64,000 nt of DNA from the NCBI RefSeq assembly GCF_055900595.2, contig NZ_CM148325.1; one strand, written 5' to 3'. Positions 6,104 through 26,713 of the stretch are shown here, piece by piece. Each line of letters begins with the position of its first letter. Position 1 is the first letter of the stretch. The translations under genes and the position numbers were made by a program. The notes below the pieces were generated by a model that worked only from the letters and a program-made list of their open reading frames with translations, did no database searches and had not been told where the DNA came from.

Positions 6104-6126
6104 ATATGGGGTAACTACTTGATTTA

Positions 6127-6145: not shown

Positions 6146-6206
6146 CAATACACATAGGCGATAAGCTTTGTTTTTGTTGCCTTTTTTATTGTTCATTTTT
6201 TATAGA

Positions 6207-6227
6207 TACCCCCAAAAGTACCCCCAT
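6207..6227 (+). repeat. TACCCCCAAAAGTACCCCCAT motif near attR (copy also at 26714-26734 near attL/int promoter)
   Basis: 21-bp motif present once near each end of the element in the same orientation; possible integrase arm-type site. Confidence 0.4.
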
Positions 6228-6345
6228 ATCTTTTTCCGCCCCTGAAATTTGGTTGTTATTCATACAGCATATCAGGCGGTAACGCTCTCCCTTTAACCCA
6301 CTTATTGTATGATAGTGCTATCCCACAATAAGGAATCAGCCAGCC

Positions 6346-6705
6346 ATGAGAATGACCAGCCGTAAAAAAGAGATACTCAGTTATTTTGAGCCGGATAACC
6401 TAGAATGGGTGACAGGTGAGATTGGTGCGCCGCCGTTCGATGTGTCGGGCGTGGCCTACCTGCTTCATGGCATGGTGTCGTTCGATAAGCGCCACCAGCT
6501 CGAATCAACCCGGCGCACACTGGAAAGCATGGTTGCTGGTGGACTGCTTGAGCGGGTGACAGTGTATGAATCGCGTCAGGTACGGCGCGGCGGTGAGACT
6601 AACGCAACGGTCGTGCGCTACGGTTTACCCGGTCACTGCGCTGTTATGCGCGATACTGGCGGCGCTGATAACGCAATATCAGGCGAATACATGCGGGTCA
6701 GTTAA
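6346..6705 (+). CDS. Hypothetical protein
   Basis: 119-aa ORF, AAGGAA RBS 8 nt upstream; inverted repeat TTATTGT(N16)ACAATAA in promoter region. Confidence 0.5.
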   Translation: MRMTSRKKEILSYFEPDNLEWVTGEIGAPPFDVSGVAYLLHGMVSFDKRHQLESTRRTLESMVAGGLLERVTVYESRQVRRGGETNATVVRYGLPGHCAVMRDTGGADNAISGEYMRVS

Positions 6706-7240
6706 GAGCCTGCAATCTGTCGTTAATGTTGTTCAGGTCGTAAACCCGGCGTTCAATATCCAGCATCAGGAAATCGTGGATCTCGGCCTGTTCAGGATTA
6801 TCAGACTCTCTGGCCTGTAAGAGCAATTCATTGTAACCATGCAAACCACCCGAATTTTCCGCCGGGGTAGTGCCCTTCCCGCGCAAACAGCTAACAGGCT
6901 GGATACTGGTATCATGTGTTTGCTTCTCCAGCACAACAAGGCAATCCCACCAGTCGCCAAAGTCATACGTGTAAACCAGCTTGTCACCCTCATTCTGGAG
7001 CGCCGCCCATAGTGGCGTGATTGCCGCGTTACCCATGCTTTCATCCTCACCCCATACGCGATACTCGCTACCTGGATCACCTTTACGCCCTTTCTCGAAC
7101 ATATACAGGTGTTCGTCATTCCAGCCAAAAGCTAACTGGATCACGGCATGAAGTTTACTAAAGGGGATTTGCTCTGGAACCAGCACACGCCGCCATATTG
7201 GTGGTTTGCTGTCTCGGATGGTTATCTTTATCTGGTACAT
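6698..7240 (-). CDS. pRiA4b ORF-3-like family protein
   Basis: N-terminus MYQIKITIRDSKPPIWRRVLVPEQIPFSKLHAVIQLAFGWNDEHLYMF matches the characteristic start of this family. Confidence 0.6.
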   Translation of the reverse strand: MYQIKITIRDSKPPIWRRVLVPEQIPFSKLHAVIQLAFGWNDEHLYMFEKGRKGDPGSEYRVWGEDESMGNAAITPLWAALQNEGDKLVYTYDFGDWWDCLVVLEKQTHDTSIQPVSCLRGKGTTPAENSGGLHGYNELLLQARESDNPEQAEIHDFLMLDIERRVYDLNNINDRLQALN

Positions 7241-7283
7241 GCGTCGTGAACCAATAGTGTACGTTTAGGTGGGTATTTTTCTG

Positions 7284-7718
7284 CTACTGACCAGGATAGA
7301 GCTGATGTGCCGGGTCAAGCCAGACAATATGGAATACATTACCGATGAAAAATCCATGTATGCGACCATATTCATTGCGCGATATGGCAAATTGATAAGG
7401 TGTATAACTCTGAAACTGTTCATTCAAATGCTGAAATCCCTTAGGTTCAGATGTAGTTTGCCAATCAATCGGATGTGACTTCAACGAACCACCGCGATCG
7501 GTGGTGAACTCTCGTTCAGTCATAGTGGAAAGGTCTTTGAGGCGGTCTAACACCTTGCAAAAATAAACAGGATTCTGAGCGCTGAAAGTAAATTTCTCAT
7601 GCGCCGCATCGATATACCGAAAAGAAAAGTTGATGGTCGTTATGCCTGAACCTGTTCCCCCAGGCACTATTTTTGTTTGCGAGGGTGCAATCTTCGACGC
7701 CCTGATTCTTTTCGCCAT
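7284..7718 (-). CDS. Hypothetical 144-aa protein, candidate toxin/effector partner of Panacea-domain protein
   Basis: ORF starts 2 nt after the stop of the upstream Panacea gene; no recognisable motif. Confidence 0.5.
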   Translation of the reverse strand: MAKRIRASKIAPSQTKIVPGGTGSGITTINFSFRYIDAAHEKFTFSAQNPVYFCKVLDRLKDLSTMTEREFTTDRGGSLKSHPIDWQTTSEPKGFQHLNEQFQSYTPYQFAISRNEYGRIHGFFIGNVFHIVWLDPAHQLYPGQ

Positions 7719-7720
7719 AT

Positions 7721-8176
7721 TTAGGAAGCCATCGAACGATAAAACTCAGCCGTTACACTTTTATCAATAACATTCTTGCACGGCGCATCTGATGGAACCC
7801 CTTCACGGGCCTCCAGCCACGGCTTTTCTTGGTGCGTCATCTGCTCCAGCTCATAAGCTGTATAACCGCCAAATACCTCATAGATTTCCTTTAGATGCTT
7901 TGACACATTCGCAGGTAACTCAGGGCAGGCAATCTCTTCGTCTATTGAGCGCCATTTGTAATCTGCAAATCTGGTATACAAATCTCTGGCTACAGGGCCA
8001 TGTACCCATGCTTCAAACTTGTCAGCAACCAGTTCTTCGCCATCATTCAGCGCCATGAACCAAGCATCAGCATAGAACACCATTTTTTGCAGTTTCAGCG
8101 GCGTCATAACATCCCCATGCTCTTGAGCAAAGCAAAGCAGGTAATCCGCTACGCTGTTAAGGGTTGTAACTGCCAT
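7721..8176 (-). CDS. Panacea-domain protein (DUF4065, GepA/SocA-like antitoxin family)
   Basis: MTPLKLQKMVFYADAWFMAL...EAWVHGPV...YELEQMTHQEKPWLEAREG pattern; start moved to internal ATG at 8176 with AGGAG RBS. Confidence 0.75.
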   Translation of the reverse strand: MAVTTLNSVADYLLCFAQEHGDVMTPLKLQKMVFYADAWFMALNDGEELVADKFEAWVHGPVARDLYTRFADYKWRSIDEEIACPELPANVSKHLKEIYEVFGGYTAYELEQMTHQEKPWLEAREGVPSDAPCKNVIDKSVTAEFYRSMAS

Positions 8177-8497
8177 TATCCAATCTCCTGCCGTATGTTT
8201 TCGTCTATAACTGTCCACTACCGTTAATAATCGCATATAACCACGGGTATTGCCCATCGTAAAATGCCATTTAAAGATTCTGCGTGATGGCTCACCATCC
8301 ACCGCGCAAGATACCCGGTGCGTTTGGCTGATAATCCGCAATTTGGTTGAAACCGTCCTGGAAACCTCAAGTTTGGAAACCAGCGACTTGCATCGTAGCT
8401 TTGCCATTCGGCGGTCATAGTTACTGCTATATCCCTTTATTGGCGAGACCTGCGAGAGGTTTTGTTGTTCGAATATATAAAGGTGAATAAAGGTAAT

Positions 8498-8683
8498 CTA
8501 CCTGCGCGGCGCAGGCTTCTTCCACTGGTAGGCGGGTGATCGCATCATTTCGCGAAATTTGTCACGCCGGGCTATATTGGCATTAACTGAGCGTTCTATC
8601 TCCCGTTGATCTGCCGGGGTTAGCTGGTGGCCTTCGTGCTCCAGTTTGGCGGTGGTCAATAAAGCTATTTCGCGTGGTGTCAT
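8498..8683 (-). CDS. Small hypothetical protein
   Basis: 61-aa ORF, charged and helical-looking, no family recognised. Confidence 0.3.
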   Translation of the reverse strand: MTPREIALLTTAKLEHEGHQLTPADQREIERSVNANIARRDKFREMMRSPAYQWKKPAPRR

Positions 8684-8911
8684 ACGTCATACCCTCTGGA
8701 AGGATGAAACACGCCCGGATTAAATTTCATTTTTCGCGGGTATAAAAAAACGATGGGGCGGGCAGTCCCGGATAGTCAGGGCTGTAGAGATTTGACTACC
8801 CCCTCCCCACTGGATTCAGGTTACTGCTATTCCGTTAAGCGCTGCTTACGGGGATAGCTGCGTTGTGATTTTGACCATTCAGGTCGCCGCTATTTCCTCA
8901 CCGATTGGGTG

Positions 8912-8938
8912 CTACGCGCGCGCGTACTTGTCCCGAAA
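8912..8938 (+). repeat. CG-palindrome motif copy 1: TACGCGCGCGCGTA + CTTGTCCCGAAAT
   Basis: One of three direct copies (8912, 10305, 10591) of the same roughly 25-bp motif. Confidence 0.6.
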
Positions 8939-8980
8939 TACCAGAAACCGCCAGCCAGAGGATGATTTCCCTCTGGTGGT

Positions 8981-9262
8981 CTACCTTTGCCTCTTGCCGC
9001 CATTTAACCGGAAGGCGTTACCGTTCGGTTGCGCTATCCCCATGCGGTGTTGCGTTTCGGTAACAGCTTTATGCAGGTCGCCAAATTCCTCAACCTTCAC
9101 GGGCGGGCGCTTCACGTTCTCCAGACACGTTTCACGGCGGCGCTTTATCCATTCCCGATCATCGTCCTCGCTGCATAACAGCATGACTTCCATCCATCGT
9201 GCGGCAGCTCTCCGGTATAGCCCTTTTGACACCAGCTCTTCAGCTTTCCTGTCCCTTATCAT
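8981..9262 (-). CDS. PerC-like small transcriptional activator
   Basis: 93-aa ORF; AEELVSKGLYRRAAARWMEVM resembles the PerC family N-terminus as I recall it. Confidence 0.45.
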   Translation of the reverse strand: MIRDRKAEELVSKGLYRRAAARWMEVMLLCSEDDDREWIKRRRETCLENVKRPPVKVEEFGDLHKAVTETQHRMGIAQPNGNAFRLNGGKRQR

Positions 9263-9298
9263 TTCTGCCTCTCAGATTATATAGATAAGCAAAAAGGT

Positions 9299-9419
9299 GT
9301 TGGTTCAGTTGGTTCAGTTGGTTCAATTTGTAAAGATCGTTGTTTTTATTATGTTTTTTCTAAAATATTGAACCAACATCAACTCATTTTGAACCAACAC
9401 AGCCCAGCTCTGAACCAAC
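9299..9419. repeat. Iteron cluster A: 3 tandem GTTGGTTCA then 3 spaced TGAACCAAC (crr/ori-like)
   Basis: Exact 9-mers at 9299, 9308, 9317 and inverted copies at 9369, 9390, 9411. Confidence 0.8.
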
Positions 9420-9521
9420 AACACAGCGATAGCTTTGTGATTGGCCCGTTATTTTCTGGCTGATATTTGAGCGTATAACAGTGTTATACAGTGATATACT
9501 GTATGGATATTACTCACTGAT

Positions 9522-9977
9522 ATGGTCTTTGCAATGAGCAAATCTAATCTGGTCGCGTTCCGCATCCCATCTGAATTGCAGGATGAGTTTAATCGGTCTG
9601 TTCTCGCTTCTGGAGGGGATAAAACCTCCTGGCTTGTTGATGCGATTCGCATGAAGCTGGGACAGCCGGAAAAGTCTATTGATTCACGAATGTTTGGGCT
9701 GGTGGAGCGCATGGAAAAAGCTGCTGCGTCGCTTATTGCCGGAAAGCCGAACATCCCACCAAAGCCATATAACGAAACGGCAGTTATAAAGATCATTGCC
9801 GATACCATCCGACAGGGATTTGATAATGGGCGTGTGATAGCTGAACGGATCAATGAAGCAGGCTATCAAACAAAAGCTGGTAAAGCGTGGGATAAAGATA
9901 TTTACAGCGCGTGGAAGCGTCAGGGAAGCAATGCTGAAAAGTTAAAAGCGGTGATTGATTGTAAGGTCAGCGTATAA
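9522..9977 (+). CDS. Putative DNA-binding protein (ribbon-helix-helix-like N-terminus)
   Basis: 151-aa ORF; N-terminal VAFRIPSELQDEFNRS...WLVDAIRMKLG resembles RHH regulators. Confidence 0.5.
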   Translation: MVFAMSKSNLVAFRIPSELQDEFNRSVLASGGDKTSWLVDAIRMKLGQPEKSIDSRMFGLVERMEKAAASLIAGKPNIPPKPYNETAVIKIIADTIRQGFDNGRVIAERINEAGYQTKAGKAWDKDIYSAWKRQGSNAEKLKAVIDCKVSV

Positions 9978-10056
9978 ACATGAGTGCCCATTGGAAAGCT
10001 GCTTGGGCCAATACCTTTATACACCAGCAGGTGGTGACGATAGGTGAGGATCAGGA

Positions 10057-10278
10057 ATGAAAGGCAGAACGCCACACATTGAACATCAAGCCAACCACTT
10101 CTCGGATGTTCGCAATGAGATGATTGCCATTCGCGGTGATATGCACGGCTTGGAGCGTCGAATTATTGATAAGATTGATGAAAATAGAGATAAGGCCAGT
10201 GAAAATCAAAAGTGGATCATCGGCCTGTTGATTTTATCAATTCTTATCCCGCTACTTATCGCATTGGTCACAAAATGA
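10057..10278 (+). CDS. Small membrane protein, XhlA-like (C-terminal transmembrane helix)
   Basis: 73-aa ORF with charged N-terminal region and C-terminal WIIGLLILSILIPLLIALV helix. Confidence 0.4.
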   Translation: MKGRTPHIEHQANHFSDVRNEMIAIRGDMHGLERRIIDKIDENRDKASENQKWIIGLLILSILIPLLIALVTK

Positions 10279-10304
10279 ATATCCAATGTGTATGCTGTCG
10301 ATGC

Positions 10305-10329
10305 TACGCGCGCGTACTTGTCGCAAAAT
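10305..10329 (+). repeat. CG-palindrome motif copy 2: TACGCGCGCGTA + CTTGTCGCAAAAT
   Basis: Direct repeat of motif at 8912 and 10591. Confidence 0.6.
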
Positions 10330-10590
10330 ATCAGGCAAAGGCCAGATTCAGAACGTCGTGATAACCACCAGCACAACATGAGATGTCATGTAACGCGATT
10401 TATCACGTCAGATACATGTGATTGGTGTACCCGCATAAAACATTGTCATAGCGCGTCCTGTGCGCATATACGCCGATAATCAACACATCACCACCACTCT
10501 GTCTCATGTAGAGAACACTTTTATGGTATCCCCCGCCATCGTGTGCGTACTGGTCGGACGCAGTTGCAAAAAATTTTGCAACTGATACCC

Positions 10591-10615
10591 CTCGCGCGCG
10601 TACTTGTCTCGAAAT
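10591..10615 (+). repeat. CG-palindrome motif copy 3: CTCGCGCGCGTA + CTTGTCTCGAAAT, preceded by perfect hairpin 10561-10583
   Basis: Direct repeat; adjacent 11-bp-stem hairpin CAGTTGCAAAA/TTTTGCAACTG. Confidence 0.6.
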
Positions 10616-10822
10616 TGGTGTTTTGCTGTGGCAGTGATATCAGAAAAATCTTCCTGTTTCACATAAAGCGGATATGCGCGTACTGTAACGGCCCCATCAA
10701 CTGGGAGCGGATTTGAGCCCCGAATGTGTAGGCAATGTCACTTAACGTTTGTCGCATACCTTCCAGAAAAAGCGATTCATGAATAATAGGGGCATGAATG
10801 CCCGGCGTACCGGGCTTATTAG

Positions 10823-11521
10823 TTAATTTGGTGCTTTAGGGTCAACATTAAAAGTTATATCACCTTCTGTATTTTTCCCGGCATAGCTAGCGGCTATTCT
10901 CGCCAACCCTTTGTAATCAGCAATTCCATCAGACTGTTGCGAGACGACTGAGCTACCAACTTTCCATAACATATTAATCTGCCGATTATTGAGATAAGCC
11001 TTGGCATCAAACGACTGGAGTATCACCCCTGCGCCGTAGAACGTGTCCGTCACAGTTGTGTTATACGCGCCAGTAATTCCATAAGTAGGCGTATAAACTG
11101 TTGTTGCCGTTCCAGTGGTATTAGCTGTACCGTAGCCACCACCATAACTATTGAACGTGGTGTTCGAGTTTCCGTACGTTGTTGCTGAGCTCACACCAGT
11201 TTGCCCGTATATTGGGATGGTTACATTACGAGTATTTGAAATGGCCCCGCTTCTCAAAAAGTTCAAGAGAATTACCTGGTCAGCCAATTTTTCATCTTTA
11301 ACTTGTGTATATCCTTGGCTTGATAAACTGGCGGCTACTACCGTAGCTATTTGAGTGTATTCAATCTGTTTGGTGTTCCAAAGTTCTTGGCTTGCGGGGA
11401 TGATCAAGAACTTCTTACCGACAGATTGCCCGGAAGATAAAGCATTGACCGTTACTAACGGTTTTTGTACGCATCCAGCCAATAATGACAGGGATAATAT
11501 TAAAAGAAGATTTTTAATCAT
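10823..11521 (-). CDS. Lipoprotein (signal peptide with lipobox LLAGC)
   Basis: MIKNLLLILSLSLLAGCVQ... lipobox; Gly/Thr/Tyr-rich mature region. Confidence 0.7.
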   Translation of the reverse strand: MIKNLLLILSLSLLAGCVQKPLVTVNALSSGQSVGKKFLIIPASQELWNTKQIEYTQIATVVAASLSSQGYTQVKDEKLADQVILLNFLRSGAISNTRNVTIPIYGQTGVSSATTYGNSNTTFNSYGGGYGTANTTGTATTVYTPTYGITGAYNTTVTDTFYGAGVILQSFDAKAYLNNRQINMLWKVGSSVVSQQSDGIADYKGLARIAASYAGKNTEGDITFNVDPKAPN

Positions 11522-11671
11522 GATAATCTCACCTAAGAATTGCGTGGTTATAAATTATCATCACTGTAAGCGAATGTAAGCCACAGACTCGTAATGTGAT
11601 ATGGAATTTTGATAGTTGGCTCAATATCAGTATGCCGTCCTTGGCTATTATGGTTTTGTTAGTTAGAGCGT

Positions 11672-14398
11672 CTATTCCCATTCGCTAACATCTTTCATGC
11701 CACTGAGGGTAGCTACAATCCCGGCCCTTGTCAGTTTCACGAATTCTTCAGCCCCAACGGCATCACGAATTGCTTTCATGGCAATTTTATTGGCCGAAAA
11801 TCGTTTCTCTGCTGCGGCGATCGCTGCTGGTGATGCCCCTGCGCGCACTGCTTTTGTAGCTTCCTGAACGGCTTTCTCTATCGCATATCGACCACTTCTT
11901 GTCGCCCCAATCTTAGCCACAGCATTTCTTAGCGCGCCACCAGCAACCAAACCACTAATCGAACCAATTACACCACCGCCAAAGCCTCCAGCGATCGCAC
12001 CTGACTGTTGAACACCGTTCATAATCACGCCGACGATCTTTGGAAGGCCTGAATCGAGCGTTTTGAGAGCCTCAGTTGTTCTTCCCGTGCGCTCTACGTA
12101 TCGCTGCGGTCTGGTACTGGCTTTAGCGAGTACACCGAACTCTTTCATCATTCTACCGAGATCTGGCGCATGACGACTGATGGCGTTTACATTCTGCTGG
12201 GTCATGAGCTTGGCAAAATACTGGATACCTGACTCTTCACCGATTCCTCCCTTCTCTCCCTGCGCCACAGCATGCTGAAGAATAGATGCTATTGCAGGTT
12301 GGCGTTCTGCTTCCGGCAGCGCGGAGATAAGACGGTGAAAAGCTCCCGTTCCAGTGTTTGCGGATGCCTTAAGCGTATCGGCACCTTTTCTTACCATAGC
12401 GTCTGATGCGAGATCTCGACCAAAAACAGATTCGGCATTTTGTTTGGCGATAATGTAACTTTTAGAGAGATCGTTAGCTTTCTGCCATTCTGTGAGGAAG
12501 TTTCCTTTTTCAGCCATGATGCGCATGTCATCAGTGATAGCTCTGCGCATTTCTCCGGCAATCCGGGCGGCATTGGCCTTACCTGCCCGGGTGTTTGCTT
12601 GTTCAGCATCAGCAAACTTAGCACGCCATGCCTTCATCCCGTCGAAGGTTATGCCGCCACCTTGGTTGTTGGCAGCCTGAAACTGTTTCATCTCCGGGCT
12701 GAGTGGAACATTGGCTGCTTTTTCTGCTTGGACGACAGCCATTCCATTACTCATTTTCATCCTTTCGCGTGGCATCGTGCTTCGCAGTTCTGCCCATGCC
12801 ATATTCTCTGCTGTTTTCATATCACTGAGGCTCGCGATGATGCGCTCTTTAATTGCTGCGCTTTTTTCTGATGCGCTTCCAGACTCAGCACCGAAATCAG
12901 ACAACTGCTTATTCAACTTTGAGGATATTTCATTGAAGGCCGTAAGGTGAGCATCCTGAACATTCCCAGGAGTTGATGCCAGAACACCTTCTGCTTGGGC
13001 AATTCCACGACTACCTGAGCGCATTCCAGGCGTCAGGGTGTTGATATTAATACCAGTGATTTTCGCCGCCTTAGCGACATCATCTCTGACGTTTGATGCC
13101 TGCGATGCGATATGCTCTCGGCCTACGGCAGAACGCGCTGCTTTCGATACATCATTGGCGGTTTCCAGAGTATTTGCTGCCCCTAACACATGGCCTGATT
13201 GATTTGTATTACTCCGCAATACATCTCGCATTACGTCACTGGCTGTCTGTCCGCTCTTTATTAAAGCGCGTGCTCCTAGCGATCCTGCTAGGCCAATACC
13301 TGTCTCTTTTGCTAGGTCTTCTGGGCTGATCTGCCCGTTCTTTTGGGCGTTCACCAATGTACCTGGCAGGTTTTCTGCCAACATACTAGCCACCTTTGTG
13401 GCCGCACGTTCAGCACGTGGAGCGTTGGCAACTGAAGAAGCTGCGGTAGCTGCCTTTCCTGCACCTAATCCTGTAATAAGGTAAGGTGCTAGCTGCTCAC
13501 CAGCCTGCGCGTATGGATCTGTAGGTTGGTCTACTGGGCGAAAGACAGGTGATATGGGCGTGTATGTGCCATCACCCACACCAAGCTTCTGAGCTGCCCA
13601 TGCTCCGGCTGATTGCGCCGCATTGACTACCCCCACGCCTGCGTCCATTACATCAAACGGTATATTAGCAATCCCTCTGGCCATCTGCTCTGGCGCAGCT
13701 TTCAGTCCTGGCGAAAGATATTCCATCTCAGGATTAAGGTTAGACTTGGCTACTTGCTGCTGCGGTTCCCCGGCATTTTCATCGGCGAGAAACTGAGCTC
13801 TTTTCTGCTCCCATGAACTGGCTGTTGGTAGTCCTGCTTCTATGTTCTTAAATTGCTGACGTTTTGCTTCCCATGCAGAAATATCTCCCACCTGAGAGAT
13901 TTCTTTATCAAGCTCTGAGTAGTCAGGCTGCTGAAGATTGCGATGTTGACTGGTTTGTGCAAACTGCAAGATTTCACTGTCATCAGGGATTATTCCGGCA
14001 TCTGCAAATTTACTTACGTAATTAGCCGTTTCATCTGGCAGTGTAGATTTACCGTTTCTGACGGCATTAATACGAGCATAGCCAGAATTATACCCAGCCA
14101 ATGCCATACCTATATCACCAAATCGCTTCATTCCTTTATTGAGATGGTTTGCTGCGATATCCATTTGCTTTTCAAATGGCAGTGAGCGCGGATCTGTTCC
14201 ACGATAACCAGCATCACTCATTACTGAGGGCATCAGTTGAGCAAATCCTCTAGCTCCTTTCGGTGACTCGGCACTTCCGTTACCACTAGATTCATTGCCA
14301 ACTAATGTTTCCATCGTCCCTGATGGGAAACCATATTTTTCATCGAGATGACGGGAATAGGCTTTCTGTTTTTCTGTCAGTTGTGCCATCATTGCCAT
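11672..14398 (-). CDS. Phage internal virion/ejection protein with N-terminal lytic transglycosylase (SLT) domain
   Basis: 908 aa; SLT motifs ES(catalytic)...GARGFAQLMP...AGYNSGYAR near the N-terminus. Confidence 0.8.
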   Translation of the reverse strand: MAMMAQLTEKQKAYSRHLDEKYGFPSGTMETLVGNESSGNGSAESPKGARGFAQLMPSVMSDAGYRGTDPRSLPFEKQMDIAANHLNKGMKRFGDIGMALAGYNSGYARINAVRNGKSTLPDETANYVSKFADAGIIPDDSEILQFAQTSQHRNLQQPDYSELDKEISQVGDISAWEAKRQQFKNIEAGLPTASSWEQKRAQFLADENAGEPQQQVAKSNLNPEMEYLSPGLKAAPEQMARGIANIPFDVMDAGVGVVNAAQSAGAWAAQKLGVGDGTYTPISPVFRPVDQPTDPYAQAGEQLAPYLITGLGAGKAATAASSVANAPRAERAATKVASMLAENLPGTLVNAQKNGQISPEDLAKETGIGLAGSLGARALIKSGQTASDVMRDVLRSNTNQSGHVLGAANTLETANDVSKAARSAVGREHIASQASNVRDDVAKAAKITGININTLTPGMRSGSRGIAQAEGVLASTPGNVQDAHLTAFNEISSKLNKQLSDFGAESGSASEKSAAIKERIIASLSDMKTAENMAWAELRSTMPRERMKMSNGMAVVQAEKAANVPLSPEMKQFQAANNQGGGITFDGMKAWRAKFADAEQANTRAGKANAARIAGEMRRAITDDMRIMAEKGNFLTEWQKANDLSKSYIIAKQNAESVFGRDLASDAMVRKGADTLKASANTGTGAFHRLISALPEAERQPAIASILQHAVAQGEKGGIGEESGIQYFAKLMTQQNVNAISRHAPDLGRMMKEFGVLAKASTRPQRYVERTGRTTEALKTLDSGLPKIVGVIMNGVQQSGAIAGGFGGGVIGSISGLVAGGALRNAVAKIGATRSGRYAIEKAVQEATKAVRAGASPAAIAAAEKRFSANKIAMKAIRDAVGAEEFVKLTRAGIVATLSGMKDVSEWE

Positions 14399-15708
14399 CC
14401 CTTAAGTTTTGCCTGATAGTAACTTTCCGGCAGATAGCCATGTGCGGTCACATAATCCTTAACCAGTGAAGGATCCTGCAACAGCATTTTGGTATCAGTT
14501 TCTTCGTCCTTAGATTTGGTTACAGGAATACCGAGCCCGGCAATCTGTCGTTTCTGCATTCGAATAATTACGTCCTGCGCTTTATTCAACTCTCGCAAAA
14601 ATGCCTCATTGCTGGTTGCTGACTTAATGCCATTTTGAGATTGCATAAGGGCAGCCCTTTCCCCTTCGGTTGGGTTAGAGCCAAAAGTCCCTTTGAGGCT
14701 AGGCAGAATAACCTTTAGGTTGTATTCATCAGCTTTGGCGCGTAGGCTTCGTGTGTCTTCTGCTACATCAGGAAGGAATCCAAACCCCAGCGTCAGGGGG
14801 TTATAGTTCTGCGAGCGGGTAACGGCCGAAGGATGTTTCCCTACAATTCCCGCCAGTTCATGACCCACTTCAAGCGCAGAGTTCAAGGAGTCGATGTTAC
14901 CTGCAACAGTATTAATTTTATCGTTCATCTTCTCCACTTTCGCCTGCTGTATCTTGCTCAGTTCAGCATTGAGCTTGTCTCTCTCGATGTCATTTTGAGC
15001 ACGTCCAAGTCGTGCTTTCAGAACCATTTCTCTCGTGCGTAGTTGGTTATCGGATAGGACTTTGAACTGCTCCATATCGAGACGTCGATTACCCTGTTCC
15101 GCATTAACCTGAGCATTATATGCGGATGTATCTGCGTTCTGCTGTGCAATGCTCTGCCCTTGCTGCTTCTCTTGAACACTAAAGTAACTATTTGGATCAG
15201 CATGGAGGTGGATGAGGTCAGTGATTCTGTTGAATTCCTGTGGGTCATTCTGCCAAGACTGATAAACCTCTTCAGCAGGAAGACCAAATCGCTGTAATAC
15301 TGGATTTGCCTGCTGAATGGCCTTCTGCATGGTCAGTGGATCTCCAGTTTGTGACGCAAGACGCAGATTCATGGCAGCGTCAGCGGTCTGTCGATTTTGC
15401 TCAGCATCAATGAATCCCATCTGTTTTTGAGAATCAGCCATAAACTGGGGATACTGGGCCATTAACTTCTGCACGCCAACACGATCATTATTAGCTACCG
15501 CACTACCCAACCGTGCCTGATATTCTTTTAACTGCTGGGAAATTTGCGCCTGCTGATTAATCTCAGCAACGCCTCTTAGCCCCTGTAGCGCCATTAAACC
15601 TACGTTTGGCTGCTGCTGATACTGCACAGGCTGAGGAACGGAAGAACGAGGAGCATTATCATTTTGCGGTGCCATGCTAGGCAGCCCGCCAAGTTGCCAT
15701 GTCGCCAT
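14389..15708 (-). CDS. Phage internal virion/ejection protein (Gln-rich, coiled-coil)
   Basis: 439-aa ORF with start/stop overlap to neighbours in the same operon. Confidence 0.6.
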   Translation of the reverse strand: MATWQLGGLPSMAPQNDNAPRSSVPQPVQYQQQPNVGLMALQGLRGVAEINQQAQISQQLKEYQARLGSAVANNDRVGVQKLMAQYPQFMADSQKQMGFIDAEQNRQTADAAMNLRLASQTGDPLTMQKAIQQANPVLQRFGLPAEEVYQSWQNDPQEFNRITDLIHLHADPNSYFSVQEKQQGQSIAQQNADTSAYNAQVNAEQGNRRLDMEQFKVLSDNQLRTREMVLKARLGRAQNDIERDKLNAELSKIQQAKVEKMNDKINTVAGNIDSLNSALEVGHELAGIVGKHPSAVTRSQNYNPLTLGFGFLPDVAEDTRSLRAKADEYNLKVILPSLKGTFGSNPTEGERAALMQSQNGIKSATSNEAFLRELNKAQDVIIRMQKRQIAGLGIPVTKSKDEETDTKMLLQDPSLVKDYVTAHGYLPESYYQAKLKGWQ

Positions 15709-16385
15709 TAGAATCCAAGCCCCCCAACAAGACCAATAAGCCCACCACCAATAGCGCCGGCCGCAGTTCCTATTCCAGGAACAACGGAACCAAGTTGCGC
15801 ACCCGCTAAAGCGCCTGATGCTGCCCCACCAATACCACGCGCAAGACTGGATGGCTGCTGCGCCTGACCTGCACGAATAGCGCCAAGCCCCTGCAAGAGT
15901 TGTCCGGTATTATTGGCGTAGTTTTGCCCTGCCGTTGCCTGCCCTGATGCCGCATTCATCCCGACATTTAGCAGGTTTCCATAATTTTGCATTTGCCCAC
16001 TGAGCCAATTGTTATAAAGCATGGGCGCAATGGAAGATAACTGGTTACTGGTAGCTGTTGAGCCAAGCCCCCCGGTAGCTTCTGCTGAGACAAGGTTCTG
16101 ATAACGGGCCTGATCTGCCTGTGTTTTATATAAACCAGAACCAAAGAAATCATTCGCGGCTTTATTCTGCCCTTCCAGAGTCATCAGTCCTTGTAGTTGT
16201 TGTAAAGCAGGCAATCCGACTTCTGCATACGGCTTGAGATTATTCATCACCGTATTCCACTGCTCGCGCTGCAAATCAATTGCCTGCTGCTGGGCCTTCG
16301 CCTGAGCTTTAGAGGCACCACCATCACCGCCTTTTTCGTATACGGCACGATTGAGATGTTTATGAGCTATGTGGGTAATTAACAT
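15708..16385 (-). CDS. Phage internal virion/ejection protein with Gly-rich hydrophobic C-terminus
   Basis: 225-aa ORF, overlaps neighbours by 1 and 7 nt. Confidence 0.6.
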   Translation of the reverse strand: MLITHIAHKHLNRAVYEKGGDGGASKAQAKAQQQAIDLQREQWNTVMNNLKPYAEVGLPALQQLQGLMTLEGQNKAANDFFGSGLYKTQADQARYQNLVSAEATGGLGSTATSNQLSSIAPMLYNNWLSGQMQNYGNLLNVGMNAASGQATAGQNYANNTGQLLQGLGAIRAGQAQQPSSLARGIGGAASGALAGAQLGSVVPGIGTAAGAIGGGLIGLVGGLGF

Positions 16386-16840
16386 TCGCTGAATTCCTTA
16401 TATTGTTGCCGAGTTAACTGATAAAGCGTTACGCCGACGGGTTTACCACATCTGATATAAGCATCATCAAGGTGACCAACACGGGTAGCGCCAAGCAAAC
16501 GGATAATTGCCCGTCCGTATTTGGTGGTGTCAGGAACCATGGTAATGCTGTTAAGGAATGGTGAGTTTTCGAGAAGCCATTTGCAGAATAATCGATGCCC
16601 TTGCAGTGCATATTCACCACGGAATCCGGGGTCGTACACCGCATGGCATTCAACAACGCTATGCCAGAAGTTACGCACTTCATGAACGCCAGCCAGCACT
16701 AATCCTTCGTAGATGCCGAGATATACCGCATCAGGCTTGATGTAGTACGTGTGCCCCGGCTCAACAATATTTTCGGTATTGCCTGGCTCGTTAAGAAAGG
16801 CCTGTAATCGCACAGGGTTATCAATAAATTTTAGTTCCAT
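16379..16840 (-). CDS. Hypothetical phage protein, first gene of ejection-protein operon
   Basis: 153-aa ORF. Confidence 0.55.
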   Translation of the reverse strand: MELKFIDNPVRLQAFLNEPGNTENIVEPGHTYYIKPDAVYLGIYEGLVLAGVHEVRNFWHSVVECHAVYDPGFRGEYALQGHRLFCKWLLENSPFLNSITMVPDTTKYGRAIIRLLGATRVGHLDDAYIRCGKPVGVTLYQLTRQQYKEFSEC

Positions 16841-16856
16841 GCGATGCCATCCATTT

Positions 16857-17018
16857 TCACATACAGCCTGCCAGCGCCTTATCTATTAACCCTCGTGCAA
16901 TTTCATGCAGAGTTGGCGCTACTCCAATTCCTGATTTTTTACGCTGCTCTTCCTGAATTTTCTTTATCGCTTCCATTTGCTTCTCACTTATCAATACCGG
17001 CTTTACTGAAATAGCCAT
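16857..17018 (-). CDS. Small hypothetical protein (53 aa)
   Basis: Hand-translated ORF below the track length cutoff, AT-rich promoter upstream. Confidence 0.3.
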   Translation of the reverse strand: MAISVKPVLISEKQMEAIKKIQEEQRKKSGIGVAPTLHEIARGLIDKALAGCM

Positions 17019-17466
17019 AACGCCCCCTTAGAACTGTATAAAACAACAGTTATTATAGTTTCACAAATCGCAATATTCATCATCGTAATTGCAAAATATG
17101 AAACAAATAGCACAAAAAAATGCCACCGCTCAGTAGCTGGTGGCATCGTTCTGTGTGTCAGGTTTTGACAGGTTTTTTATGGACTCTAAAAACTATATTT
17201 ATGGTGTCGCATTACTCTTCACGGCAGGCGCTTTTCAGTTCTGCCCTTGCTTCTGGCTCCATTGGTAATTTGATTCGCGATCAGCTATGCGGATGGTTTG
17301 CTGAACAGGCATAACAACTTCTCAGAGGCTGTTTTTTGAACTACGAAAATTTCGTAGTGCTCACTTTCAAAAACGTCACGCCCTTGTACACAGGATTTTA
17401 CGAAAGTCTCGTAAAACACTCTCTGATGCCAGCCAGGTGTTGTGCGCATCAATTCAGTCACATTGT

Positions 17467-17577
17467 GTTGGTTCAAAATACCGTGTTGTTGGTTCAGTGT
17501 TGGTTCAATAAAAAGAATAAAATCCTTATAAAACAATACTCTTTACAAATTGAACCAACTGAACCAACTGAACCAAC
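17467..17577. repeat. Iteron cluster B: 3 spaced GTTGGTTCA then 3 tandem TGAACCAAC; inverted image of cluster A
   Basis: Reverse complement shares a 45-nt near-identical block with 9295-9340; lies just downstream of the primase gene. Confidence 0.8.
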
Positions 17578-17602
17578 ACCTTTTCTACGCACATGAAGAA
17601 GC

Positions 17603-20362
17603 TCATTCTTCAGATGAGTTATAATCTCCTGGCTGGTAATTGAGTACATAAACGTTTATTTGTCGTCCCTGAATACGTGGTGATTTTCTTTGGTATCCAC
17701 GACCGCTGTTTGGTGGGGTTAGCATCCCGGCTTTTTTCAACACTTCAGCAAACTGTTTTGCGTTGAAACCACATGCGATCTCCTTTTCAAATGTGGCCGG
17801 GAATGTGTAGAAAATCATTGGGCTTTCGTCATGTTCTCCACGCTGACGGTATCCGGCTAAATCTTTGATGGGCAAATCTGCCGGGCTGTATGGAAATGGT
17901 GCAAAACGGCTAAGCCCATAGGCATTAAGAAATGCCTCCGTTTGTTCAATAATCTGCTGATGTTCTTTGTTACCTGTGCCGAACTCGCGCAACCATGCGT
18001 TATAGCTGTGCTGTATCGCATCACGGCATGTCTGAGCATCCCAGCCTGTTACAACCTCGCCTAACAGCAATGCGGCCTCCAGAATGGCAAATCGCGCGGC
18101 TACACGGTGAACCTGCTCACCATAATCGGATGGGATCAGGCTTCTCCATCTGCTTTCGCAATCACGAACGGTTTTAATAGCCTGTTGCTGGTGGTCTGCC
18201 AGCCATTTAATCCACTCACGCCCGGACGCGCCGTGGTGATGCTGGTAAGCGTCTTTCAGTGCGTCTGCGTGCTGTTTTCCGTTCTGGTAATCGTGAAAGC
18301 GTACTGCTTTACTCAACGGAATATTCAGCAGTCGCACCAGTTGCCCGGCTTTGGTTTTTCGCCCGGAAGTAGCGATAAATGTTTCTAAATCCATTTCTCC
18401 GGTGCTGATTGCCACTGTACGCCAACGTTTTAGATCCCGGTTTCCACCATCTTTAGCGCCTTGCAGTTTCCCTACACCGTTAAATAACGCATAGGCAGAC
18501 TGTGAAACGCTGACAGGATCAGCGCCCTGACCAACTTCATCAAGCGGCATTAGTCCGTCATTGTGGGCGGCGGCCTCATTTGCCAGCCCCAGCGCGGTTC
18601 CGTACCACGTCAGCCGCAGTAAATCAGGGTTGCCGTATAAGCTGCTCGCCACGTTTGCCGTGGTGGTCTTACCTGCGCTCGACTGCTCATAGAAATGAAT
18701 GCCGAACCCGTCAGCGCCCACCAGCCCAATCAATGGCGCTGCCAGTGCTGCGCCGATCCCGGTCATCATTGAATAGTTACCAAAGGCCAGACGCGCCACG
18801 TTATCACGCCAGCTTTTCGCGCTCCCTGAGACGGTATATCCGGCTGCGGCTGAGCTTCTCCCGCTGAACAGCACAGGATTTTCAGGTGTTCCGATGATTT
18901 CCCCATCAGGCATGATGTACGCTCCGCATTGCCAGCCAGTGGCATGAGCAACACGCCACAATTCACGAGAGCCACTGCGTTGTAGCCAGTCTGCCAGTAT
19001 TGCTCTGAGGCTGCTTTTGGTCGTGACATTTACCCCACCAGCTTTAAGTGTGCGCCATCCTTCACGTTCACCAATATCAGCCAGTGGAATGGCAGCGGTT
19101 GTCGGCGTTTCAGAACCAAACGACAGCCAGCGAAGAATGAGATACTGGTCTTTATCGTCTCTGCCAGTACCGATAACGCTTAACGGAGAACATAACCAGC
19201 TTTCGTTATTGATGATTTCTCCACTCTGGCTGTCAGCTCTCGGAGATACCCAATAAATACCATCCTCGCGGCTTTCTATTCTTGGTTTCAGTGGGTCGGT
19301 ATCCATAACCTTAAAATCGCTTCCCTCAATGGTCTGTGGCTCCTGTTTCACGCCATTACCCTGTGGTTGGTACATTGACTTATTGAACGCTTCTGTGGCG
19401 CATTTAATGCCGTGTTTTTGGTGGTAATCATTCCAGTCTGCTTTGTGATCTGTCGGGGGTAATGCCACCCATCCAGAAACAGATAAAGCTGCTTTTTCTG
19501 CTGCTATTCTCCCCGTGTTTTGTCTTCCTTCGCTGTGGTCGTTATCCGCAGCAATGATGATTTGTGCTGAAGGATATTTATCCCGCAGTACCTGGGCGAC
19601 ATATAACAGGTTCCCGGCATCAATCGCCGCCACTGTCAGCGCCTCTGGACGAATTAAATGGGCAGATAATGCCGTTGCCAGCCCTTCTGCGATTAAGATG
19701 CTCTGTGTTGTTTCTGGTGCGTTTATGGCGTGATATGCCCCCCGCTTTGCTGAACCTGTCAGGAGTCTTTTTTCACCATGTGAGGTAATAGTCTGTGCTG
19801 CTGTGACTGCGCCGGATTTATCCACCAGCGCCAGCAACAGAGATCCATCGGGCAACACGGGGAATGTAAAATCACCTACCCCTTTCGCAACCAGATAATC
19901 AGATTTGCCGTTTACAGCCTTTCTGCGCATGTCATCAAACTGACGGGAAAACGTATCCCGTCTTTGTTGTTCGTCCTTCTCTGCCCTTTTCAGGCGCTCC
20001 TGTTCGCGTCGCTGGCGCTCGGTTTCCAGTTGTTCCCGTTTCTGGCTGGTGGCTTCTGGTGTTTCCGTTGTCCGGTAATCAATACCCAGAACATCAGCGG
20101 CAAGAAGCGCCGCCTCTGTTGTGTCGCAGTTATTTACGCGTTTAATTAAATCCAGCCCATCACCAGCGCCGCACTGATTACAGATGAAGCTACCGCGCCC
20201 GTTGTCATCGAACCGGAATCGATCTTTGCCCCCACATGCAGGGCAGGGAGCATGACGGCGCGGAGAGTCAGGGACATTTATGTTCAGGCAGCCCAGCACA
20301 TGAGGCCAGTTGTTTTCAGACGCACTGATAACCTGACGGATAAGATCAATGTTTCGCATCAC
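17603..20362 (-). CDS. P4 alpha-like DNA primase-helicase
   Basis: 919 aa; zinc-finger CPACGG...CNQCG, TOPRIM-like acidic core IIIAADNDH, Walker A SSAGKTT. Confidence 0.85.
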   Translation of the reverse strand: MMRNIDLIRQVISASENNWPHVLGCLNINVPDSPRRHAPCPACGGKDRFRFDDNGRGSFICNQCGAGDGLDLIKRVNNCDTTEAALLAADVLGIDYRTTETPEATSQKREQLETERQRREQERLKRAEKDEQQRRDTFSRQFDDMRRKAVNGKSDYLVAKGVGDFTFPVLPDGSLLLALVDKSGAVTAAQTITSHGEKRLLTGSAKRGAYHAINAPETTQSILIAEGLATALSAHLIRPEALTVAAIDAGNLLYVAQVLRDKYPSAQIIIAADNDHSEGRQNTGRIAAEKAALSVSGWVALPPTDHKADWNDYHQKHGIKCATEAFNKSMYQPQGNGVKQEPQTIEGSDFKVMDTDPLKPRIESREDGIYWVSPRADSQSGEIINNESWLCSPLSVIGTGRDDKDQYLILRWLSFGSETPTTAAIPLADIGEREGWRTLKAGGVNVTTKSSLRAILADWLQRSGSRELWRVAHATGWQCGAYIMPDGEIIGTPENPVLFSGRSSAAAGYTVSGSAKSWRDNVARLAFGNYSMMTGIGAALAAPLIGLVGADGFGIHFYEQSSAGKTTTANVASSLYGNPDLLRLTWYGTALGLANEAAAHNDGLMPLDEVGQGADPVSVSQSAYALFNGVGKLQGAKDGGNRDLKRWRTVAISTGEMDLETFIATSGRKTKAGQLVRLLNIPLSKAVRFHDYQNGKQHADALKDAYQHHHGASGREWIKWLADHQQQAIKTVRDCESRWRSLIPSDYGEQVHRVAARFAILEAALLLGEVVTGWDAQTCRDAIQHSYNAWLREFGTGNKEHQQIIEQTEAFLNAYGLSRFAPFPYSPADLPIKDLAGYRQRGEHDESPMIFYTFPATFEKEIACGFNAKQFAEVLKKAGMLTPPNSGRGYQRKSPRIQGRQINVYVLNYQPGDYNSSEE

Positions 20363-20717
20363 CGTACCCCACGTGGTCTATAGCGTTTGCGATATGGCTA
20401 ACCAGCATCTGCCACTTGGTTATTCCGTAATCAGTCAGCATGCCATCATTGTTTAGCCACATATCAAATTCAGCGGTTGTCGCAAGTTTCCACTTATCGC
20501 CGTGGGCAGTCCTCATTGCTGGGTACATGAATGCGCAAATCAGATCACAAACATCTGACGGCTTCAGAGATGTAGTAATGATGCGTCCCTCTGGCGTCTG
20601 AATTGCCATTTTCTCTTCACCAGTAGAATGAAGGTTATGAATCCACACAGCACCAGCAATCTTTGCCACCTGCTCTCCGATTGCGGAGCTAAGCGCCATT
20701 TCTGCATTTTCACGCAT
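20346..20717 (-). CDS. Hypothetical protein
   Basis: 123-aa ORF in operon with primase. Confidence 0.45.
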   Translation of the reverse strand: MRENAEMALSSAIGEQVAKIAGAVWIHNLHSTGEEKMAIQTPEGRIITTSLKPSDVCDLICAFMYPAMRTAHGDKWKLATTAEFDMWLNNDGMLTDYGITKWQMLVSHIANAIDHVGYGDAKH

Positions 20718-21051: not shown

Positions 21052-21061
21052 GGTTCCATCC

Positions 21062-24391: not shown

Positions 24392-24403
24392 TTTCAGTCT
24401 CCG

Positions 24404-26681: not shown

Positions 26682-26713
26682 TTGGGGGTACCTCCACTAA
26701 ACCGAACAGCAAA

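What the first reader, a model, noticed from the sequence alone, without database searches (positions are those of the whole stretch)
9299..17577. Two mutually inverted iteron clusters 8 kb apart, resembling P4 ori/crr
Each cluster has three GTTGGTTCA and three TGAACCAAC 9-mers, and cluster B is the reverse complement of cluster A, including a 45-nt near-identical block. Cluster B lies just downstream of the alpha-like primase-helicase gene, as the ori does in P4, so cluster A would be a crr-like cis element. Unusually, the 8-kb segment bracketed by the two clusters is full of virion genes rather than replication genes.
Basis: partly seen in the sequence, partly recalled or inferred. Interest (0 to 1): 0.6.

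Follow-up and report, generated by a model that had tools for sequence, protein, structure and literature searches.

The report
Satellite replication origin split by cargo genes
The two inverted repeat clusters are the two halves of the replication origin of a phage-parasitising island (a PICI) in E. coli, pulled 8 kb apart by a cassette of phage DNA-injection genes; this is an unusual layout of a known kind of origin.

Summary
All 12 exact GTTGGTTCA copies in the 64-kb window lie in two clusters, 9299-9419 and 17467-17577. The clusters are mutually inverted and share a 45-nt identical block.

They sit in a ~20.7-kb PICI-type phage satellite integrated at tRNA-Thr. Cluster B starts 25 nt after the stop of a 919-aa Pri-Rep protein. 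Its N-terminal primase resembles P4 alpha; its helicase and C-terminal domain resemble SaPIbov1 Rep.

Each cluster has the published SaPI/PICI origin anatomy: 3+3 opposed iterons around a 43-bp, 84% AT core.

In 48 relatives from other Enterobacterales:
- Iterons follow the primase stop in 46.
- Eight iteron sequence classes co-vary with the last ~45 residues of the primase.
- Twenty-three relatives carry both units side by side (about 170-320 bp).
- Eleven are split by 0.4-8.8 kb, always with the tandem triples outermost and inverted.

Clusters A and B are therefore the two units of one composite origin, with a cargo slot between them. The cargo here is P22-like ejection proteins; elsewhere it is tape-measure or baseplate-hub genes.

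The P4 ori/crr analogy is only partly right, and no inversion of the segment is seen. Whether Rep binds both units, and whether they cooperate, is inferred and untested. Verdict: a new variant of a known kind.

The parts
17551..17577 (-). Unit B (primase-proximal): three tandem 9-bp iterons GTTGGTTCA, outermost, 25 nt after the pri-rep stop
17508..17550 (.). Unit B AT-rich core (43 bp, 84% AT; island average 52%). It carries the TTTATAAGG motif seen in most, though not all, proximal units, including several other iteron classes. Inferred melting site.
17467..17507 (+). Unit B: three dispersed iterons in the opposite orientation; start-to-start spacing 11 and 21 bp counted from the AT core (starts 17499, 17488, 17467)
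17427..17437 (-). CCTGGCTGGCA motif, which marks the centre of the compact origins of relatives; here it sits on the cargo side of unit B
   Evidence: function unknown
9299..9325 (+). Unit A (distal): three tandem iterons, outermost, inverted relative to unit B. The flank 9270-9298 matches the conserved right end (..ACCTTTTTGCTTATATAG) of compact origins.
9326..9368 (.). Unit A AT-rich core (43 bp, 84% AT); begins with the ATTTGTAAAGA shared with unit B
9369..9419 (-). Unit A: three dispersed iterons, spacing 21 and 21 bp. This spacing is conserved in the distal units of other genera and differs from unit B.
17603..20362 (-). Pri-Rep initiator, 919 aa: Zn-ribbon and Toprim primase (P4 alpha-like), DUF927 helicase, and a C-terminal domain with the fold of the SaPIbov1 Rep CTD. 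The last ~45 residues (about 17650-17785) co-vary with iteron class.
11672..17018 (-). Cargo operon between the units: a conserved 53-aa ORF (16857-17018); P22 gp14-like (16379-16840); gp7-like (15708-16385); gp20-like (14389-15708); gp16-like protein fused to a lytic transglycosylase (11672-14398)
9522..11521 (.). Rest of the bracketed segment: ORF o151 (9522-9977 +), found just inside the distal unit wherever it was detected in a split relative (L016, L017, L020, and L002 in E. coli); o73 (10057-10278 +); hypothetical protein (10823-11521 -)
8981..9262 (-). PerC-family regulator gene, the first gene after the origin. In cargo-less relatives it follows the compact origin directly.
6147..26846 (-). 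The whole island (~20.7 kb): int 25467-26681, AlpA-type regulator 24835-25038, antA/B 23558-24391, 'ash' 22322-23389. It is bounded by copies of the tRNA-Thr 3' end (6129-6146 and 26847-26864).

Best explanation
Clusters A and B are the two units of the composite replication origin of a Gram-negative PICI-type phage satellite. Each unit has three tandem iterons, a 43-bp AT-rich core and three dispersed iterons in the opposite orientation, which is the SaPI/PICI origin design. The island's Pri-Rep protein recognises the 9-bp iteron through the winged-helix-like end of its C-terminal domain, assembles on both sides of the AT-rich core, melts it and loads itself as the replicative helicase, while its own primase domain supplies primers. 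In most relatives the two units abut, forming a ~170-320-bp imperfect palindrome right after pri-rep with the tandem triples at its outer ends. In this island, and in at least 11 relatives from other genera, an accessory cassette sits in the centre of that palindrome, so the units lie 8.2 kb apart.

My committed mechanism is this. Unit B is the primary start site, because it keeps the AT-core motif found in most proximal units. Unit A is a second Rep assembly site that works with B through DNA looping, so the split origin behaves like the compact one.

Shown here: anatomy, homology, covariation and conservation. Inferred: Rep binding, melting, looping, and whether unit A fires.
For: The iterons are non-random and confined to the two clusters.

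The initiator is Zn-ribbon + Toprim + DUF927. Residues 403-814 match SaPIbov1 Rep, PDB 8tch, by sequence. A model of the last 190 aa (pLDDT 82) has 8tch and SCCmec Cch as its only significant fold matches.

Published SaPI and Gram-negative PICI origins lie immediately 3' of rep. They have iterons in opposite orientation on each side of an AT-rich centre, and the Rep CTD binds them (PMC9371898; PMC6092414).

In 46 of 48 related loci an iteron cluster starts roughly 20-60 bp after the primase stop, and it falls into eight sequence classes. The class tracks the C-terminal tail of the primase. At matched body identity (0.70-0.85), tail identity is 0.80 within a class and 0.53 between classes.

Both units always carry the same class, in compact origins and in split origins of three classes: GTTGGTTCA, TTATCCC in L059, and AACCGAC in L037.

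In alignment A1, unit B aligns with the left part of compact origins and unit A with the right part, including the conserved outer flank.

In the nine GTTGGTTCA-class split loci scanned, the proximal triple has orientation a and the distal triple orientation b. L059 and L037 show the same layout by eye. Proximal and distal units keep different iteron spacings across genera.

E. coli islands with different cargo, att site and integrase keep both units. Unit B is in 364 and unit A in 334 of 5,426 complete E. coli genomes.

The experimentally validated EcCICFT073 origin has the same layout, with inverted tandem iterons about 190 bp apart just after its primase gene.
Against: There is no experimental evidence for this element. 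Binding, melting and the need for unit A are all inferred.

Unit A's AT core lacks the TTTATAAGG motif of the proximal units, so it may not be a melting site.

Twelve relatives show only the proximal unit within the sequence available; nine of them had ~10 kb downstream. The distal unit may therefore be dispensable or lie further away.

In many compact origins the second unit has a G+C-rich spacer instead of an AT core.

Nine of the eleven split loci belong to one iteron class.

The related loci were collected by primase homology, so co-occurrence with a primase is partly by construction. The position, class covariation and architecture are not.
Confidence: 0.72

Rival explanations
1. P4-style division of labour. 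Only one cluster is the start site. The other is a crr-like cis enhancer or a copy-control ('handcuffing') site that binds the initiator but never melts.
For: P4 has the same iteron at two sites 4.7 kb apart, with crr just 3' of alpha. The primase domain is homologous to P4 alpha. Unit A lacks the AT-core motif of proximal units, and many compact origins have a G+C-rich second spacer.
Against: Unit A in the split loci has a full 43-bp, 84% AT core and 3+3 opposed iterons, the same as unit B. The DNA-binding/helicase part of the initiator is SaPI-Rep-type, not alpha-type. P4 crr consists of direct 120-bp repeats, not an inverted copy.
Confidence: 0.3
2. Unit A is a functionless by-product. A cassette was acquired by recombination between two satellites at their origins, leaving a duplicated origin copy that is simply tolerated.
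For: The region after pri is a known accessory hot spot in Gram-negative PICIs (PMC11364771). Cargo differs between otherwise near-identical E. coli islands. Twelve relatives show no distal unit in the sequence available.
Against: The distal unit is conserved, with its own characteristic 21/21 spacing, ATTTGTAAAGA box and outer flank, across Escherichia, Cedecea, Leclercia, Rosenbergiella, Chimaeribacter, Serratia and Enterobacter. It co-varies with the primase class in L059 and L037. Compact origins with no cargo also contain the second unit. Its orientation is invariant.
Confidence: 0.1
3. The 9-mers are operators of a transcription factor (PerC, the o151 product or AlpA). Both clusters are regulated promoter regions driving the two convergent transcription units of the bracketed segment.
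For: Both clusters point the same way relative to the genes just inside them. Cluster A precedes o151/o73 on the + strand, and cluster B precedes the 53-aa ORF and the ejection operon on the - strand. A TATAAT lies in the outer flank of unit A, facing PerC.
Against: No sigma-70-like promoter is found in either cluster. Iterons are present in relatives where neither PerC nor o151 was detected by tblastn at at least 50% coverage, for example L007, L010, L013. The iteron class tracks the primase tail. The layout equals that of validated PICI and SaPI origins.
Confidence: 0.06
4. The inverted repeats are recombination sites of an invertible (switchable) 8-kb segment.
For: There are 55-nt inverted arms at 95% identity.
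Against: A synthetic inversion junction is covered at 80% or more in 0 of 655 E. coli genomes that carry the sequences. No invertase gene is present in the island. The orientation is the same in all genera.
Confidence: 0.02

Closest known systems
SaPI / PICI Rep-iteron origins (SaPIbov1, SaPI1, SaPI5 PriRep; Gram-negative PICI EcCICFT073)
   Same: A self-loading DUF927/MCM-like Rep with a C-terminal iteron-binding domain, fused to a primase as in SaPI5. The origin starts right after the rep stop. Iterons lie in opposite orientation around an AT-rich core. Iteron specificity is matched to the Rep C-terminus. The element has the PICI gene order int-alpA-...-pri-rep-ori-PerC.
   Different: The origin is double, with two iteron/AT units. 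Here its two units are 8.2 kb apart, with a gene cassette in between. I found no description of this in the papers searched. The primase domain is P4-alpha-type.
Satellite phage P4: alpha protein with ori and crr
   Same: One primase-helicase-initiator polypeptide. The N-terminal primase is homologous (33% identity). The same short iteron occurs at two loci several kb apart, one of them directly 3' of the initiator gene. That both P4 sites are needed in cis is from my own knowledge of the P4 literature.
   Different: The helicase/origin-binding part is not homologous. The P4 iteron TGTTCACC is absent. P4 crr consists of two direct 120-bp repeats, and P4 ori lies upstream of the alpha operon, so the P4 interval holds the replication genes. 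Here the units are inverted copies and the interval holds cargo.
Iteron plasmids with distant initiator sites (e.g. R6K gamma/alpha/beta origins; P1/F incA-type handcuffing) - from my own knowledge, not tested here
   Same: Initiator molecules bound to iterons kilobases apart are brought together by looping, either to activate a distant origin or to control copy number.
   Different: Those initiators are Rep/pi-type proteins that recruit host DnaB, not self-loading helicases. They show no palindromic two-unit design.
PICI accessory hot spot downstream of pri (Tai defence systems, PMC11364771)
   Same: A variable accessory region directly after the pri gene of Gram-negative PICIs.
   Different: In the passages retrieved (keyword look-ups), that paper places the hot spot next to pri and I saw no mention of it lying inside the origin. 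The cargo here is homologues of virion DNA-delivery proteins, not Tai.

Membership tests
SaPI/PICI-type Rep-iteron origin | Origin lies immediately 3' of the rep (pri-rep) reading frame | tested here: met
   Unit B starts 25 nt after the stop; the same holds in 46 of 48 relatives. Unit A does not meet this on its own (8.2 kb away), but it is contiguous with unit B in 23 relatives.
SaPI/PICI-type Rep-iteron origin | At least two iterons on each side of an AT-rich centre, pointing in opposite directions | tested here: met
   Both units have 3+3 iterons around 43 bp of 84% AT. Definition taken from PMC9371898 and PMC6092414.
SaPI/PICI-type Rep-iteron origin | Initiator is a DUF927/MCM-like self-loading helicase with a C-terminal DNA-binding domain | tested here: met
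   Pfam DUF927, E 5.6e-47. PDB 8tch by sequence, E 1.4e-11. The C-terminal 190-aa model matches 8tch (SaPIbov1 Rep) and 5dgk (Cch), probability 1.00.
SaPI/PICI-type Rep-iteron origin | Iteron sequence is specific to the cognate Rep | tested here: met
   Eight iteron classes co-vary with the primase C-terminal tail: 0.80 versus 0.53 identity at matched background. This is comparative evidence only.
SaPI/PICI-type Rep-iteron origin | Rep binds and melts the origin and drives autonomous replication | not testable with these tools
   Needs EMSA or footprinting and a plasmid maintenance assay.
Gram-negative PICI (element level) | int, alpA-type regulator and pri-rep followed by ori; mostly unidirectional genes; 10-20 kb; own att site; no complete virion or lysis gene set | tested here: met
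   int, AlpA-type regulator (phrog_66/2790), pri-rep, about 20.7 kb at the tRNA-Thr 3' end. No capsid, terminase or tail genes were found, only ejection-protein homologues. Helper dependence, induction and packaging were not testable.
P4 ori/crr system | Alpha-type initiator: primase + P4-type helicase + C-terminal domain binding TGTTCACC | tested here: not met
   Only residues 8-362 align with alpha. The remainder is DUF927/SaPI-Rep-like. TGTTCACC occurs twice in the window, at chance level and outside the island.
P4 ori/crr system | crr = two direct 120-bp repeats 3' of alpha; ori on the far side of the alpha operon | tested here: not met
   P4 annotation. Here the two units are mutually inverted and both lie 3' of the primase gene.
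P4 ori/crr system | Both sites required in cis for replication | not testable with these tools
   Needs deletion analysis.
Invertible DNA segment | Both orientations occur in populations; a dedicated recombinase is present | tested here: not met
   0 of 655 genomes carry the inversion junction. No invertase is annotated or detected.

The most novel reading that the evidence does not exclude
The centre of the composite origin is a dedicated cargo slot. Two Rep-bound units loop together, so that whatever lies between them is replicated first, amplified in situ before excision, or easily exchanged between satellites that share an initiator. The slot preferentially holds helper-matched DNA-delivery proteins: P22-type ejection proteins here; tape-measure, internal lytic or baseplate-hub proteins elsewhere. 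The satellite would build these into the hijacked virions to control its own DNA entry or to sabotage the helper's.
Probability: 0.15. Interest if true: 0.8.

Novelty: new variant of a known kind. Interest (0 to 1): 0.5.

Why it matters
PICI and SaPI origins are described as compact sites just after rep. This family shows that the two iteron/AT units of such an origin can be kept 0.4-8.8 kb apart across many genera, always in the same inverted layout. If the units cooperate, a self-loading MCM-like initiator acts over distance, as P4 alpha and R6K pi do. That can be tested directly with the existing PICI plasmid assay. The layout also locates the recently reported 'accessory region next to pri' inside the origin. 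Finally, it shows a satellite lineage carrying its own versions of the virion proteins that deliver DNA into the next host. This bears on how satellites hijack or block different helper morphotypes.

Tried and rejected
(1) Invertible segment. I built the junction expected after recombination between the 55-nt arms and searched 5,426 E. coli genomes. No genome covers it at 80% or more. Rejected.

(2) Promoter/operator reading. The sigma-70 scan found nothing in either cluster, and the iterons occur in relatives where PerC and o151 were not detected. Rejected as the main function.

(3) True P4 family membership. P4's own iteron is absent, only the primase domain is homologous, and the ori/crr positions differ. 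Rejected as membership; kept as an analogy.

(4) Recent duplication. Proximal and distal units have distinct spacings conserved across genera. Rejected.

(5) Defence-system annotation of the right-arm and cargo ORFs with PADLOC: no hits.

(6) Pfam for o151: no hit. My impression that it has a ribbon-helix-helix N-terminus remains unverified.

(7) Literature searches for satellites carrying ejection or tape-measure proteins, or for split PICI origins, found nothing specific.

(8) NCBIfam on the left-arm ORFs: only the integrase and a weak Cch1 match for the primase.
Full report
OBSERVATION. The 9-mer GTTGGTTCA occurs 12 times in the 64-kb window, against 0.5 expected, and no shuffle reaches 12. 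All copies lie in two clusters. Cluster A has three tandem copies on the + strand (9299-9325), then 43 bp, then three dispersed copies on the - strand (9369, 9390, 9411). Cluster B is the mirror image: three dispersed + copies (17467, 17488, 17499), 43 bp, then three tandem - copies (17551-17577). The repeat finder reports 55-nt inverted arms at 95% identity.

CONTEXT. The window is E. coli chromosome. The clusters lie in a ~20.7-kb island bounded by copies of the tRNA-Thr (thrW) 3' end at 6129-6146 and 26847-26864. The island's genes run mostly on the - strand, starting from the tRNA end. In order they are:
- a tyrosine integrase and an AlpA-type excisionase/regulator;
- an Ant-like and an 'ash' gene;
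- small ORFs, then a 919-aa primase-helicase at 17603-20362;
- cluster B;
- a 53-aa ORF, then homologues of P22 gp14, gp7, gp20 and gp16, the last fused to a lytic transglycosylase;
- three ORFs without virion matches;
- cluster A;
- PerC and a few accessory genes.
This is the Gram-negative PICI layout (int, alpA, pri-rep, ori, PerC) described in PMC6092414.

THE INITIATOR. Pfam finds a primase Zn-ribbon, a Toprim domain and DUF927. Residues 8-362 are 33% identical to P4 alpha (E 9e-42), and nothing beyond that aligns. Residues 403-814 match PDB 8tch by sequence. An AlphaFold model of the last 190 residues (pLDDT 82) has only three significant PDB fold matches (two structures): 8tch, the SaPIbov1 replication initiator/helicase, and two chains of 5dgk, SCCmec Cch. 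The protein is therefore a P4-alpha-type primase fused to a SaPI-Rep-type self-loading helicase. For SaPI Reps it is published that a winged-helix domain in the C-terminal domain binds iterons. Six to twelve iterons lie immediately downstream of rep. An AT-rich region sits in the middle, with at least two iterons on each side pointing in opposite directions (PMC9371898). The same design is reported for Gram-negative PICIs, where the EcCICFT073 rep-ori segment was shown to drive plasmid replication (PMC6092414). Each cluster here fits that description on its own: 3+3 opposed iterons around 43 bp of 84% AT, in an island that is 52% AT.

COMPARATIVE EVIDENCE. A scan of one genome per species returned 64 loci, and I analysed 48 loci with Enterobacterales primase homologues at 54-100% identity.

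(i) In 46 of the 48, a cluster of short repeats begins roughly 20-60 bp after the primase stop.

(ii) The repeat sequence falls into eight classes: GTTGGTTCA, GAGACAACA, ACGGGTTAC, GTGGGTTAT, GTCGGTTCA, AAACCGACC, ACTTATCCC and TGGGCTAAA. Each goes with its own version of the last ~45 residues of the primase. For example, GRGYQRKSPRIxGRQ goes with GTTGGTTCA, GRGYQGRVREGGRQ with GAGACAACA, and GKNWQIRTPRLKHLNNAR with ACTTATCCC. For pairs whose upstream 145 columns are 70-85% identical, the tail is 80% identical within a class and 53% between classes. This is the signature expected of a specificity determinant and its site.

(iii) Twenty-three loci have a compact origin. Most span ~260-320 bp; L008 spans 171 bp. 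Its layout is: [tandem iterons, orientation a] - AT core - [dispersed, b] - CCTGGCTGGCAG - [dispersed] - spacer - [tandem, b] - ACCTTTTACTTATATAG. In some of them (L014, L046) the second half is a full mirror unit with its own AT core.

(iv) In alignment A1, the reverse complement of cluster B aligns with the left part of these compact origins. The reverse complement of cluster A aligns with the right part, including the conserved outer flank.

(v) Eleven loci are split like the window, with the distal unit 0.4-8.8 kb away: L012, L016, L017, L020, L025, L030, L037, L050, L054, L058 and L059. In all nine GTTGGTTCA-class loci the proximal tandem triple is in orientation a and the distal one in b. 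L059 and L037 show the same layout by eye. The triples are therefore outermost and inverted, with the cargo inside.

(vi) Two of the split loci belong to other iteron classes: L059 (TTATCCC, 7.8 kb) and L037 (AACCGAC, 0.4 kb). In both, the distal unit carries the class of its own primase.

(vii) Proximal and distal units are not recent copies of each other. Proximal units have dispersed-iteron spacing 11/21 and mostly a TTTATAAGG motif in the core. Distal units have 21/21 spacing. These differences hold across Escherichia, Cedecea, Leclercia, Rosenbergiella, Chimaeribacter, Serratia and Enterobacter.

(viii) Within E. coli, islands at another att site, with another integrase and different cargo, keep both units. 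Unit B is present in 364 and this version of unit A in 334 of 5,426 complete genomes.

(ix) Relatives without cargo read pri - compact origin - PerC - the same right-arm genes (L009 and L011; L045 and L028 in part).

(x) The validated EcCICFT073 origin belongs to a different primase type. It also starts ~14 nt after the primase stop and is bounded by inverted tandem iterons (TGTCTACC x2 ... GGTAGAnA x2) 190 bp apart.

INTERPRETATION. The two clusters are best read as the two units of one PICI-type composite origin, with an accessory cassette in its centre. [quoted passage not shown] The present data place that region between the two origin units in a sizeable subset of islands.

How it works is inferred by homology, not shown here. 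Pri-Rep would bind the iterons through its C-terminal domain, assemble hexamers on both sides of an AT core, melt it and load itself. I take unit B as the primary start site, because it keeps the AT-core motif found in most proximal units. I take unit A as a second assembly site acting with B through looping, so that the split origin behaves like the compact one.

There are grounds for caution. Unit A's core lacks the proximal motif. Many compact origins have a G+C-rich second spacer. Twelve relatives show no distal unit in the sequence I could see.

It is partly right. The primase domain is truly alpha-like, and one initiator with sites kilobases apart does recall ori/crr. But the P4 annotation shows that crr, not ori, lies 3' of alpha, and that ori sits 4.7 kb away beyond the alpha operon. 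P4's iteron is absent here. The DNA-binding/helicase part is SaPI-Rep-like. The separation is variable, and zero in nearly half of the relatives.

REJECTED ALTERNATIVES. No genome carries the junction expected from inversion of the segment (0 of 655). No sigma-70-type promoter is predicted in either cluster, and the iterons persist in relatives where PerC and o151 were not detected. A recent, functionless duplication does not fit the conserved differences between proximal and distal units or the class covariation.

CARGO. The cassette between the units differs by island. In the islands sampled, its largest gene is a virion DNA-delivery protein. Here it is the P22-type gp14/7/20/16 set. L017 and L058 carry tape-measure proteins, L016 and L020 a lytic internal or tail protein with a transglycosylase domain, and L025 a baseplate hub. 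A conserved 53-aa ORF usually heads the cassette. I found no paper describing satellites with such cargo. This is a lead, not part of the finding.

VERDICT. The feature is real, non-random and evolutionarily conserved. It is a known kind of element, a PICI/SaPI Rep-iteron origin, in an undescribed split two-unit arrangement: a new variant of a known kind. Interest is moderate (0.5). It offers a clean test of long-range cooperation by a self-loading MCM-like initiator, and it ties a satellite accessory hot spot to the origin. The basic biology of the iterons, however, is already understood.

Noticed in passing
window 11672-17018; L016:14448-16250, L017:14632-18042, L020:16258-18012, L025:13918-15021, L058:16198-18912: The cassette between the two origin units differs by island, but in the islands sampled its largest gene is a virion DNA-delivery protein. 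These are P22-type ejection proteins (window), tape-measure proteins (L017, L058), lytic internal/tail proteins with a transglycosylase domain (L016, L020) and a baseplate hub (L025). I found no literature on satellites carrying such genes.
   Followed up: partly
window 22781-22868 (-) and 22931-23008 (-); also 5154-5242 (+) and 5053-5131 (+): Rfam matches above gathering score to C4 antisense RNA and isrK sRNA lie inside the ORF annotated as 'ash family protein'. A second isrK-C4 pair lies in the neighbouring island remnant. This suggests a P1/P7-c4 or P4-CI-like RNA immunity module and may mean the 355-aa 'ash' ORF is over-called.
   Followed up: partly
window 1-6146: To the left of the PICI lies the remnant of an older thrW island: a 999-aa hypothetical ORF at 1950-4949, a small HTH gene and an integrase fragment. 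In other E. coli strains this remnant abuts tRNA-Thr directly, so the PICI inserted between the tRNA and an earlier island (tandem occupancy of thrW).
   Followed up: partly
window 9465-9515; the corresponding stretch just inside the distal unit in L012, L016, L017, L020: Short repeats lie between unit A and the o151 start: TATAACAGTGTTATACAGTGATATACTGTAT in the window, and TGTCTTAC-N2-TGTCTTAC followed by GATAAAAT in other genera. They look like operators for o151, whose N-terminus resembles a ribbon-helix-helix motif to my eye. Pfam finds nothing.
   Followed up: partly
window 17330-17420: Two palindromes of similar design (CTACGAAAATTTCGTAG and TTTTACGAAAGTCTCGTAAAA) lie between unit B and the cargo operon. 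They are possible operator sites for control of cargo expression. Parts of this stretch also resemble 23049-23144 (repeat families D4 and D13).
   Followed up: no
window 17427-17437; centre of the compact origins in L007, L009, L014, L019, L021, L038: A CCTGGCTGGCA(G) motif is conserved at the centre of the origin across several different iteron classes, so it is not an initiator-specificity element. Its function is unknown.
   Followed up: no
window 9270-9298 (- strand reading) and the right end of all compact origins: The conserved outer flank ACCTTTTTGCTTAT(C)TATATAAT follows the distal tandem triple and contains a perfect TATAAT facing PerC. It may be an activator-dependent promoter for the right-arm genes. 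The simple scan found no -35 element.
   Followed up: partly
L004 (NZ_CP076305.1) and L005 (NZ_CP031912.1): Some E. coli genomes keep only unit A together with the PerC-pRiA4b arm, fused to unrelated prophage DNA. These are decayed islands that have lost the primase and unit B.
   Followed up: partly
L032 (Yersinia pekkanenii), 5.7 kb and 1.1 kb upstream of the primase stop: Two extra full iteron clusters lie upstream of, or within, the primase region of this locus, in addition to the normal one after the stop. The cause could be tandem islands or an assembly duplication.
   Followed up: no
window 7284-8407: A Panacea-domain protein with an adjacent small ORF lies in the right arm. This is a possible toxin-antitoxin pair, and PADLOC gives no hit.
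   Followed up: partly
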